From assembly GCF_003334335.1 (NCBI RefSeq), contig NZ_QOWQ01000005.1: a stretch of 64,000 nt of DNA; one strand, given 5' to 3'. Below the pieces are notes generated by a model. It was given only the letters and a program-made list of their open reading frames with translations, searched no databases and was not told the origin of the DNA. Positions 21,009-21,545 of this stretch are shown here, one piece after another. Within the stretch, counting starts at the first letter, position 1. Each line of letters begins with the position of its first letter. The position numbers and the translations under genes were made by a program. The DNA is from Escherichia coli (lineage in GTDB: Bacteria; Pseudomonadota; Gammaproteobacteria; Enterobacterales; Enterobacteriaceae).

Positions 21009-21228
21009 TACATAATCCTTCATTTATTTTAATTACAGTGATCCCTGTGAATATTACATCTGCTATACCGATTAATTCGCCAGATATATATGCAAGCACC
21101 ATCATTTACTAAAACAAGTAAATAAACGAGAGATGACCTTTGCAAAAGGCAAAATTAAGATATAGCAAACAAATAGATCACATTGAATCTAATCGGTTTG
21201 GCTCTGGTGATGGCTACAGAAGGGCAAA

Positions 21229-21303
21229 TCAAGGGCGGTGATCGACAATTTTGTTGTCAATATTGAACCATTTTGAGGTCACACATATATGTAAGATATT
21301 CAT
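21229..21303 (-). CDS. tnaC: tna operon leader peptide TnaC (24 aa), not in ORF track
   Basis: Reverse-complement translation gives MNILHICVTSKWFNIDNKIVDHRP-stop, with the regulatory Trp12 and terminal Pro24. Confidence 0.95.
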   Translation of the reverse strand: MNILHICVTSKWFNIDNKIVDHRP

Positions 21304-21545
21304 AATGCACTTATCCTCGCAAGACACGAGGCTACATTATTACACTCAGAGTTTTTGTCTATTCTGAAATTGTTTAAATGTGAATCGAATCACAATCGTT
21401 CGGGGAGCAATATTAAATGCTTTTTTTAAAGATTATAAATTACGTAAGAATTTTAATGTTTAAAAAAAGGGTTGAGGAATAACAGGAGTGGTAACAATGA
21501 AGCGAAGCCGCATCTGACAGTCAGAATGCGGCTTCGTAAGCGCGG

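What the first reader, a model, noticed from the sequence alone, without database searches (positions are those of the whole stretch)
21009..21545. tna leader: TnaC peptide and a long leader-to-tnaA spacer
The 24-codon tnaC (Trp at codon 12, Pro at 24 before the stop) is followed by a spacer of about 220 nt before tnaA. This is the architecture used for tryptophan-induced ribosome stalling that blocks Rho-dependent termination. It is missing from the ORF track, and anyone using the track alone would call 21009-21545 empty.
Basis: partly seen in the sequence, partly recalled or inferred. Interest (0 to 1): 0.3.

Follow-up and report, generated by a model that had tools for sequence, protein, structure and literature searches.

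The report
E. coli tryptophanase leader, tnaC
This is the textbook tryptophan-sensing leader of the E. coli K-12 tryptophanase operon (tnaC peptide plus a 220-nt spacer before tnaA), base-for-base identical to the sequence on which the mechanism was worked out, so it is real but already fully known.

Summary
On the minus strand, 21303..21229 encodes MNILHICVTSKWFNIDNKIVDHRP* (Trp12, Asp16, Ile19, Pro24, UGA). Exactly 220 nt (21228..21009) follow before the tnaA ATG at 21008. The peptide passes NCBIfam TIGR02616 (44.3 bits, cut-off 23.55). The whole 537-nt intergenic region is 100% identical to E. coli K-12, where RefSeq annotates tnaC, and solved ribosome structures carry this peptide. Published disome profiling shows stalling at its stop codon, and Term-seq shows 3' ends inside the leader.

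Two corrections:
- The feature is on the minus strand.
- Only about 21327..21009 is transcribed leader. The rest of 21009-21545 is the CRP-dependent promoter (perfect TGTGA-N6-TCACA at 21394..21379) and the mnmE 3' hairpin.

Verdict: already known, low interest.

Side observations from relatives:
- The tnaC stop codon is dimorphic in E. coli (UGA in at least 58% of genomes, UAA in at least 32%), and UAA predominates in other Enterobacterales.
- Relatives carry a hairpin at a conserved position about 30-40 nt past the stop. It is degenerate in Escherichia.

The parts
21503..21536 (-). mnmE 3' hairpin (GAAGCCGCAT...ATGCGGCTTC). It lies downstream of the mnmE stop (21548..21546) and is NOT part of the tna leader.
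   Evidence: RNA fold gives -23.9 kcal/mol. There is no U-run after it, and the terminator scan did not call it. Its role as terminator or 3' stabiliser is inferred.
21379..21394 (.). CRP (CAP) binding palindrome TGTGATTCGATTCACA of the catabolite-sensitive tna promoter.
   Evidence: It is the only exact TGTGA-N6-TCACA in the 64-kb window (0.05 expected by chance). It is invariant in four E. coli lineages. Catabolite repression and CRP activation of tna are stated in PMC8429421 and PMC5748587.
21336..21341 (-). -10-like hexamer AATAAT (TATACT in BL21, O157 and strain 8178). The -35 is poor, as expected for a CRP-dependent promoter.
   Evidence: Read directly from the sequence and the alignment. 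The sigma-70 scan did not call it because the -35 is weak. The assignment is inferred.
21327..21327 (-). Presumed transcription start, if the leader is the published 319 nt.
   Evidence: Arithmetic only: 24 nt of 5' UTR + 75 nt of tnaC + 220 nt of spacer = 319. The 319-nt figure is recalled from Stewart & Yanofsky and Konan & Yanofsky. Those papers were not held, so the figure was not verified here.
21314..21318 (-). tnaC Shine-Dalgarno GAGGA, 10 nt before the ATG.
   Evidence: Sequence. Invariant.
21229..21303 (-). tnaC, encoding the 24-residue arrest peptide MNILHICVTSKWFNIDNKIVDHRP, with a UGA stop.
   Evidence: TIGR02616; RefSeq WP_001364348.1; PDB 6i0y, 4uy8; synonymous-only variation; homologues upstream of tnaA in about 26 other genomes.
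21229..21237 (-). boxA-like CGCCCTTGA, overlapping codons 23-24 and the stop.
   Evidence: The sequence is present. That this is the published boxA-like site is recalled from Stewart & Yanofsky 1985 and Konan & Yanofsky 2000. Its boundaries were not verified here.
21201..21240 (-). C-rich, G-poor tract straddling the tnaC stop: the rut (Rho utilisation) site.
   Evidence: 16 C against 7 G in 40 nt, the C maximum of the leader. The same C>G bias holds around the stop in all 24 relatives, although the sequence itself is not conserved. The tract is largely unpaired in the MFE fold. The papers place rut immediately downstream of tnaC.
21217..21217 (-). Abundant RNA 3' end 12 nt past the stop codon (MG1655 coordinate 3888521).
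   Evidence: Term-seq table of PMC7815308, mapped to the window by string match. Reading it as the leading edge of the arrested ribosome is my inference.
21174..21191 (-). Weak hairpin TAGATT-CAATGT-GATCTA followed by TTTGTTTG. It is the Escherichia remnant of a hairpin at a conserved position in other Enterobacterales, and a possible RNA polymerase pause element.
   Evidence: -2.3 kcal/mol, not above chance in K-12 (35% of shuffles). In 14 of 23 sequences the equivalent hairpin is matched by no more than 2% of shuffles, and some differ on both arms while keeping complementarity. Function is inferred.
21009..21228 (-). tnaC-tnaA spacer, 220 nt. It is the region of RNA polymerase pausing and Rho-dependent termination. 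It is also reported to bind ribosomal protein L4 and the sRNA Spot 42.
   Evidence: Length. No intrinsic terminator on this strand. Not unusually structured (z = -1.48). Literature.
21035..21035 (-). Second RNA 3' end, 27 nt before the tnaA ATG (MG1655 coordinate 3888703).
   Evidence: PMC7815308 supplement. Rho score 1.10, called 'No' in LB. Mapped.
21016..21020 (-). tnaA Shine-Dalgarno AAGGA, 7 nt before the ATG at 21008.
   Evidence: Sequence. The last 47 nt before the ATG are invariant.
19593..21008 (-). tnaA (tryptophanase, 471 aa), the regulated gene. tnaB follows at 19502..18255.
   Evidence: TIGR02617, 1010 bits. RefSeq annotation.

Best explanation
This is the regulatory leader of the E. 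coli K-12 tnaCAB operon, read on the minus strand.

1. Transcription starts from a CRP-cAMP-dependent promoter (CRP palindrome at 21394..21379).
2. A ribosome translates the 24-codon tnaC (21303..21229).
3. With little free tryptophan, RF2 releases TnaC at the UGA. The ribosome leaves, and the C-rich rut tract around and just after the stop codon (about 21240..21200) is exposed.
4. Rho loads there and terminates RNA polymerase paused in the 220-nt spacer, so tnaA and tnaB stay off.
5. With high free tryptophan, one L-Trp molecule binds in the exit tunnel between nascent TnaC (W12, D16, I19) and 23S rRNA/uL22. Hydrolysis of TnaC-tRNAPro (P24 in the P site) is blocked.
6. The arrested ribosome sits on the stop codon and masks rut. 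Rho cannot load, and transcription continues into tnaA-tnaB.

Shown here:
- Identity of the sequence with K-12.
- Every sequence element and its coordinates.
- Purifying selection on the peptide.
- Conservation of the architecture across genera.

Taken from experiments on this identical sequence in the literature: tryptophan binding, RF2 inhibition, Rho dependence and pausing.
For: - Peptide and coordinates. TIGR02616, 44.3 bits against a cut-off of 23.55, and TIGR02617 for tnaA.
- The 537-nt intergenic region is 100% identical to K-12. It matches in 5420 of 5426 complete E. coli genomes, and tnaC is annotated under the match in 24 of the 25 listed hits. In K-12 the RefSeq gene order is mnmE-tnaC-tnaA-tnaB.
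- PDB chains of TnaC-stalled ribosomes.
- Exact 220-nt spacer, and a C-rich/G-poor peak of 16 C to 7 G at 21240..21201 straddling the stop.
- Unique perfect CRP palindrome, 0.05 expected.
- Only synonymous third-position changes in tnaC across four lineages, all with the same protein accession.
- A degenerate-pattern scan of 100,044 species genomes found 32 loci. In 26 the match is followed by tnaA on the same strand. Two more (L008, L037) encode TnaC but are cut by the contig end. Spacers are 220-272 nt in most Enterobacterales. The C>G bias after the stop is present in all 24 relatives tabulated.
- No intrinsic terminator on the minus strand of the spacer.
- Mechanism in the literature: PMC8429421, PMC12360218, PMC3902921, PMC10941005, PMC8450073.
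- In vivo stalling at the tnaC stop by disome profiling: PMC8848927.
- 3' ends at window 21217 and 21035: PMC7815308.
Against: - Nothing in the sequence contradicts the explanation.
- Function cannot be tested with these tools.
- The transcription start and the boxA boundaries rest on recall, because the classic papers were not held.
- Rfam has no family for this leader. That reflects curation rather than absence.
- The Term-seq 3' end at 21035 was not scored as Rho-dependent in LB (Rho score 1.10). This is expected if the tryptophan in LB keeps the operon induced, but it is not positive evidence for Rho either.
Confidence: 0.97

Rival explanations
1. The 24-codon ORF is a chance ORF in an AT-rich promoter/UTR region, and is neither translated nor functional.
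For: Short ORFs of 20-40 codons are abundant on both strands here. The mechanical ORF finder even extends this one to a GTG start at 21327 (32 aa).
Against: - A curated family hit far above its cut-off.
- The same protein accession in lineages whose flanking DNA differs by about 5%, with only synonymous changes.
- Homologous peptides upstream of tnaA in 10 or more genera.
- Cryo-EM structures of the nascent chain.
- Ribosome and disome footprints.
Confidence: 0.005
2. The leader works like the trp biosynthetic attenuator. Ribosome position on Trp codons would choose between alternative RNA hairpins, one of them an intrinsic (Rho-independent) terminator.
For: It is a short leader peptide containing Trp upstream of a tryptophan-related operon. 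There is a small hairpin followed by a U-rich run at 21191..21163. In relatives that hairpin is much stronger.
Against: - There is a single Trp codon, not tandem ones.
- The operon is induced, not repressed, by tryptophan.
- No terminator-like site is called on the minus strand of the spacer.
- The K-12 hairpin is -2.3 kcal/mol and indistinguishable from shuffles.
- The spacer as a whole is not unusually structured (z = -1.48).
- The literature demonstrates Rho dependence and arrest at the stop codon rather than at the Trp codon.
Confidence: 0.01
3. This is an additional layer rather than a true rival. The long spacer exists mainly as a platform for post-transcriptional control of tnaA: pairing with Spot 42 (and GlmY/GlmZ in EHEC) and binding of ribosomal protein L4. 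This would explain why the spacer is kept at 220 nt or more.
For: - Spot 42 represses a tnaA'-'lacZ fusion carrying only the spacer (PMC5748587).
- L4 binds the 220-nt spacer and lowers TnaA translation (PMC7186457).
- The last 47 nt before the tnaA ATG are invariant among E. coli lineages.
- Spacers of 220-272 nt are kept across most Enterobacterales.
Against: - Spacer sequence is poorly conserved between genera (45% mean column identity).
- I could not pin the Spot 42 site; there are three weak candidates.
- Pelistega has the peptide with only a 53-nt spacer.
- These layers do not replace the Rho/TnaC switch.
Confidence: 0.4

Closest known systems
E. coli K-12 tnaCAB leader (tnaC / TnaC ribosome arrest peptide with Rho-dependent attenuator)
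   Same: Everything. The 537 nt are 100% identical and the RefSeq annotation is the same. The peptide equals PDB 6i0y chain 7.
   Different: Nothing. The window is this locus.
Proteus vulgaris tnaC leader
   Same: A tryptophan-sensing nascent peptide upstream of tnaA, with Rho-dependent termination in a tnaC-tnaA spacer (PMC3902921).
   Different: In P. vulgaris the ribosome stalls during elongation at the Lys-33 codon rather than at the stop codon. The peptide is longer and the spacer shorter; that last point is recalled, not tested here. My pattern scan required P24 directly followed by a stop, so this type was not sampled.
speFL-speF ornithine-sensing leader (E. coli, Salmonella)
   Same: A uORF-encoded arrest peptide that captures a small metabolite in the exit tunnel, blocks release at its stop codon and thereby prevents Rho-dependent termination upstream of a catabolic or decarboxylase gene (PMC12360218; PMC8429421).
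   Different: The ligand is ornithine. RF1 rather than RF2 is inhibited. The ligand binds before peptide synthesis is complete. The peptide sequence is unrelated.
trpL attenuator of the trp biosynthetic operon
   Same: A short leader peptide whose translation is coupled to a transcription termination decision in response to tryptophan status.
   Different: It senses charged tRNATrp at tandem Trp codons, uses alternative hairpins and an intrinsic terminator, and represses in the presence of tryptophan. This is established knowledge. None of these features is present here.

Membership tests
TnaC tryptophanase leader peptide (TIGR02616 / Pfam Tna_leader) | Profile match above the curated cut-off | tested here: met
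   44.3 bits against a cut-off of 23.55, E 1.1e-11, profile positions 1-22 of 22.
TnaC tryptophanase leader peptide (TIGR02616 / Pfam Tna_leader) | Functionally essential residues W12, D16, I19 and P24 with the canonical spacing, and P24 as the last sense codon | tested here: met
   MNILHICVTSKWFNIDNKIVDHRP*. The residues are listed as critical in PMC10941005.
TnaC tryptophanase leader peptide (TIGR02616 / Pfam Tna_leader) | Peptide under purifying selection and conserved in other taxa | tested here: met
   All four substitutions are synonymous third positions, and the protein accession is the same in four lineages. Homologues with ...SKWFNID..IV(N/D)H.P* occur in Citrobacter, Kluyvera, Leclercia, Pantoea, Serratia and others. 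W, F, N, D, I19 and P24 were imposed by the search pattern. K11, V20, N/D21 and H22 were not.
tna-type Rho-dependent attenuator | Leader ORF directly upstream of tnaA(-tnaB) on the same strand, separated by an untranslated spacer | tested here: met
   tnaC 21303..21229, a 220-nt spacer, tnaA 21008..19593, tnaB 19502..18255.
tna-type Rho-dependent attenuator | C-rich, G-poor, unstructured rut tract adjoining the tnaC stop codon | tested here: met
   16 C to 7 G in 21240..21201, the C maximum of the leader. The same bias is seen in 24 relatives. The tract is unpaired in the MFE fold. Actual Rho binding cannot be tested here.
tna-type Rho-dependent attenuator | No intrinsic terminator in the spacer (termination is factor-dependent) | tested here: met
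   No terminator-like site on the minus strand between 21228 and 21009. The only local hairpin is -2.3 kcal/mol.
tna-type Rho-dependent attenuator | boxA-like sequence at the tnaC 3' end | tested here: inconclusive
   CGCCCTTGA is present at 21237..21229. The published boundaries could not be checked because Konan & Yanofsky 2000 is not held.
tna-type Rho-dependent attenuator | Tryptophan-dependent arrest at the stop codon, and Rho-dependent termination relieved by it | not testable with these tools
   Documented for this identical sequence in PMC8429421, PMC8450073, PMC3902921 and PMC8848927.
Catabolite-sensitive (CRP class) promoter of tna | CRP consensus site upstream of a weak -35 | tested here: met
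   Perfect TGTGA-N6-TCACA, unique in the window, 0.05 expected. The sigma-70 scan finds no full promoter on the minus strand. Its position relative to +1 (about -60) depends on a recalled transcription start.

The most novel reading that the evidence does not exclude
Nothing novel is left in the window itself. The most novel reading not excluded concerns lineage-specific tuning of this attenuator.

- The window carries the UGA allele of the tnaC stop codon. At least 32% of complete E. coli genomes, and 21 of 24 other enterobacterial representatives, carry UAA.
- UAA is also read by RF1. Su et al. 2021 say RF1 releases TnaC efficiently.
- Relatives also carry a stable hairpin plus U-run 30-40 nt past the stop. 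This hairpin has decayed in Escherichia.

Together these could mean that tryptophan sensitivity and the pause/termination step are set differently in different lineages. The K-12 model (RF2-only stop, no hairpin) would then be the atypical case.
Probability: 0.3. Interest if true: 0.3.

Novelty: already known. Interest (0 to 1): 0.05.

Why it matters
For the scan, this is a positive control. A reader working from raw sequence recognised a real 24-codon regulatory gene that length-filtered ORF tracks miss. The element itself is one of the best-studied ligand-sensing nascent peptides, used as a model for ribosome arrest and as a tryptophan biosensor part (PMC12360218). Re-finding it in K-12 adds no new biology. 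The side observations on stop-codon dimorphism and the conserved hairpin in relatives may interest people who engineer or compare tnaC sensors.

Tried and rejected
- **Rfam.** An E<=1 search of 20800-21800 gave no match. There is no curated family for this leader.
- **Sigma-70 scan.** It did not call the tna promoter. The one promoter-like hit is on the plus strand and below the chance expectation.
- **RNAalifold.** On the MAFFT alignment of the first 95 nt of spacer from 23 genomes it predicted no pairs. The alignment shifts the hairpin arms in several rows, so I scored per-sequence hairpins against shuffles instead. I did not build a covariance model.
- **Spot 42 pairing.** Unconstrained RNAduplex of Spot 42 against the spacer gave a meaningless full-length duplex, no better than shuffles. 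An ungapped complementarity scan gave three weak candidates (21163..21142, 21078..21050, 21017..21001) and could not identify the 15-nt site reported in PMC5748587.
- **Classic papers.** Konan & Yanofsky 1997 and 2000, Gong et al. 2001, and Gong & Yanofsky 2003 on the pause are not held. A search for the '319'-nt leader gave nothing useful, and the Term-seq supplement has no transcription-start entry. The +1 position and the boxA limits therefore remain recalled.
- **Explanations rejected.** A chance ORF and trp-type intrinsic attenuation (see the rivals).

Full report
**1. What is in the sequence**

The interval 21009-21545 is the gap between two minus-strand genes. mnmE has its stop codon at 21548..21546, and tnaA starts with an ATG at 21008.

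On the minus strand, 21303..21229 translates to MNILHICVTSKWFNIDNKIVDHRP*. That is 24 sense codons, with Trp12, Asp16, Ile19, Pro24 and a UGA stop. The stretch from the base after the stop (21228) to the base before the tnaA ATG (21009) is exactly 220 nt.

The mechanical ORF list starts tnaA at an upstream in-frame ATG (21023) and tnaC at a GTG (21327). The real starts are 21008 and 21303:
- RefSeq annotates them that way in the identical K-12 locus.
- TIGR02617 aligns from residue 5 of the 471-aa product.
- Shine-Dalgarno motifs sit in front of these starts: AAGGA at 21020..21016 and GAGGA at 21318..21314.

**2. Is it more than chance?**

Short ORFs are everywhere in this region, so the ORF alone proves nothing. 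The evidence comes from elsewhere:
- (a) NCBIfam TIGR02616 'tnaC_leader' scores 44.3 bits against a curated cut-off of 23.55. The downstream gene is tryptophanase (TIGR02617, 1010 bits).
- (b) The 537-nt interval is 100% identical to E. coli K-12. It has a match in 5420 of 5426 complete E. coli genomes, and tnaC is annotated under the match in 24 of the 25 listed hits. In K-12 the gene order is mnmE-tnaC-tnaA-tnaB.
- (c) The peptide equals the nascent chain in solved stalled-ribosome structures 6i0y and 4uy8.
- (d) K-12, BL21, O157:H7 and strain 8178 have leaders that differ at about 5% of positions. Within tnaC the only changes are four synonymous third positions (F13, I15, N17, K18) and the middle base of the stop codon. 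RefSeq gives the same protein accession in all four.

**3. Relatives in other species**

I scanned one genome for each of 100,044 species with a degenerate pattern for W-F-N-[ILMF]-D-x2-I-x4-P-stop. This gave 32 loci.
- In 26 of them the match is followed on the same strand by tnaA (tblastn 79-100% identity).
- Two more (L008 and L037) encode a TnaC peptide but are cut by the contig end before tnaA.
- Four (L012, L018, L026, L034) have no tnaA downstream and no plausible start, or only a very short ORF. These look like chance hits; my rough estimate was about 7 expected by chance.

The genuine hits are Escherichia, Citrobacter, Kluyvera, Leclercia, Pantoea, Serratia, Cedecea, Pluralibacter, an Enterobacter sp. 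and a Klebsiella sp., plus Pelistega. The peptides are 24-25 residues and end in ...SKWFNID..IV(N/D)H.P*. Residues K11, V20, N/D21 and H22 are conserved even though the pattern did not require them.

Spacers are 220-272 nt in Enterobacterales, with 441 nt in Pantoea stewartii. The 'long spacer' is therefore a family trait, and E. coli sits at the short end. Spacer sequence is poorly conserved (45% mean column identity). In every relative, however, the 60 nt around the stop are C-rich and G-poor (C 13-23 against G 4-10, apart from the shorter Pelistega leader).

**4. Anatomy of the K-12 leader**

- **CRP site.** A perfect palindrome TGTGATTCGATTCACA lies at 21394..21379. It is the only such site in the 64-kb window, with 0.05 expected by chance, and it is invariant among the four lineages.
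- **Promoter.** A -10-like AATAAT lies at 21341..21336. The -35 is poor, and the consensus scan does not call this promoter. That fits a CRP-dependent promoter.
- **Transcription start.** If the published leader is 319 nt (recalled, not verified), +1 is at 21327, because 24 + 75 + 220 = 319.
- **rut tract.** The C maximum of the leader is 21240..21201, with 16 C and 7 G in 40 nt. It straddles the stop codon and is mostly unpaired in the predicted fold. [quoted passage not shown]
- **boxA-like sequence.** CGCCCTTGA at 21237..21229 is the boxA-like sequence as I recall it.
- **Spacer.** It has no intrinsic-terminator-like site on the minus strand and is not unusually structured (z = -1.48).
- **Outside the leader.** 21536..21503 is a strong hairpin (-23.9 kcal/mol) that belongs to the 3' end of mnmE, not to the tna leader.

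**5. Mechanism**

The mechanism is established for this exact sequence.
- Initiation is under catabolite control.
- After tnaC is transcribed, RNA polymerase pauses in the spacer.
- At low tryptophan the ribosome is released at the UGA. Rho then loads on rut and terminates transcription.
- At high tryptophan one L-Trp binds in the exit tunnel with W12 and D16 of TnaC, 23S rRNA and uL22 K90. RF2 cannot hydrolyse TnaC-tRNAPro.
- The arrested ribosome masks rut, and transcription proceeds into tnaA and tnaB.

Sources: PMC8429421, PMC12360218, PMC3902921, PMC10941005 and PMC8450073.

Disome and monosome profiling show a prominent peak at the tnaC stop codon (PMC8848927). Term-seq finds 3' ends at MG1655 3888521 and 3888703 (PMC7815308). 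I mapped these to window 21217 (12 nt past the stop) and 21035 (27 nt before the tnaA ATG). The position of the first is where the leading edge of a ribosome holding UGA in its A site would protect the RNA; that reading is my inference. The second was not scored as Rho-dependent in LB (score 1.10), which is compatible with induction by the tryptophan in LB.

Further published layers act on the same spacer: Spot 42 pairing (PMC5748587) and ribosomal protein L4 binding (PMC7186457).

**6. Verdict**

The feature is a member of the family; indeed it is the type specimen. Novelty: already known. Interest is low (0.05).

- The feature is on the minus strand.
- Only about 21327..21009 is leader RNA. 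21328..21545 is promoter, CRP site, AT-rich upstream DNA and the mnmE 3' hairpin.

**7. Side observations outside the brief**

- **Stop-codon dimorphism.** I searched for exact 39-mers centred on the stop. The K-12 type (CCT TGA TTTG) is in 3140 of 5426 genomes, CCT TAA TTTA in 1726 and CCT TAA TTTG in 36. Among the other enterobacterial representatives, 21 of 24 use TAA. Su et al. write that RF1 releases TnaC efficiently while RF2 is inhibited. A UAA stop, which both factors read, should therefore weaken the arrest. Natural UAA alleles may tune inducibility.
- **Conserved hairpin in relatives.** Most relatives have a hairpin starting 24-39 nt after the stop, followed by a U-rich run (consensus aACAGAUU-loop-AAUCUGUUUu). 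Some variants differ on both arms while keeping complementarity: Leclercia AGACU/AGUCU, Kluyvera GUGGU/ACCGC, C. sedlakii GGCUA/UAGCC and P. allii CGGC/GCCG. In 14 of 23 sequences no more than 2% of shuffles reach the observed stability. In Escherichia the hairpin is only -2.3 to -2.9 kcal/mol, which is not above chance. It may be one of the pause elements that the literature places in the spacer. I could not check this.
- **Pelistega indica.** It has a 20-residue TnaC and a spacer of only 53 nt.

Noticed in passing
window 21229-21231 (tnaC stop); L003 (BL21); The tnaC stop codon is dimorphic in complete E. coli genomes. TGA as in this window is in 3140 of 5426 genomes, and TAA in at least 1762 (1726 with a linked G>A change 5 nt downstream, plus 36 without it). 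In other Enterobacterales representatives 21 of 24 use TAA. RF1 is reported to release TnaC efficiently (PMC8450073), so UAA alleles may have altered tryptophan inducibility.
   Followed up: partly
window 21174-21191 (-); equivalent position in L009-L038: Relatives carry a hairpin plus U-rich run at a conserved position, starting 24-39 nt after the tnaC stop. Several variants differ on both arms but stay complementary. In 14 of 23 sequences no more than 2% of shuffles are as stable. It is degenerate in Escherichia (-2.3 kcal/mol in K-12). It may be a pause element. RNAalifold on the MAFFT alignment missed it.
   Followed up: partly
L007 (Pelistega indica NZ_AYSV01000066.1) 921-962 (-): A betaproteobacterial tna leader with a 20-residue peptide, MYFSSKRWFNIDPKITFFFP*, and only 53 nt between its stop and tnaA. 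That is far shorter than the 220-272 nt of Enterobacterales, and may be too short for the same Rho/pause arrangement.
   Followed up: no
L006 (E. coli E70) and L005 (E. coli AH62): IS1 insertions disrupt the leader in some isolates. In E70, IS1 sits in the tnaC-tnaA spacer. In AH62, IS1 replaces the promoter, tnaC and the spacer. Only the first 44 nt after mnmE remain, and tnaA is annotated 36 nt shorter.
   Followed up: no
window 21396-21545; L002 (O157:H7): About 790 of the 5420 matching E. coli genomes lack the mnmE-proximal 150 nt or so of this intergenic region. In O157:H7 a frameshifted ShET2/EspL2 type III effector gene lies upstream instead. The breakpoint falls just upstream of the CRP palindrome, which is retained.
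   Followed up: partly
window 21336-21352 (-): The K-12 promoter core differs at several clustered positions from BL21, O157 and strain 8178. The -10 is AATAAT in K-12 and TATACT in the others, and there are changes just upstream. The rest of the leader is much more uniform.
   Followed up: no
window 21217 (-): The abundant Term-seq 3' end (PMC7815308) lies 12 nt past the UGA. That is the distance expected for 3'-exonuclease trimming up to the leading edge of a ribosome arrested with UGA in the A site. This is an inference, not something stated in the paper passages I read.
   Followed up: partly
L017 (JAIJJM010000386.1, 'Collinsella sp.' MAG, 3097 nt): This contig is 100% identical to E. coli tnaC-tnaA, so it is almost certainly a mis-binned Escherichia contig in an actinobacterial MAG.
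   Followed up: no
window 56491-56620 (+), 26519-26599 (-), 42250-42322 (+), 32076-32118 (-): Rfam gathering-score hits elsewhere in the window: istR, AsdA (antisense of dnaA mRNA), a ROSE_2 thermometer and the ES036 sRNA. All are known elements unrelated to this finding.
   Followed up: no
window 21009-21023 (-): The mechanical ORF finder starts tnaA at an in-frame ATG five codons upstream (MKDYV-MENF...). The AAGGA Shine-Dalgarno lies inside that extension, so 21008 is the real start, as annotated.
   Followed up: yes
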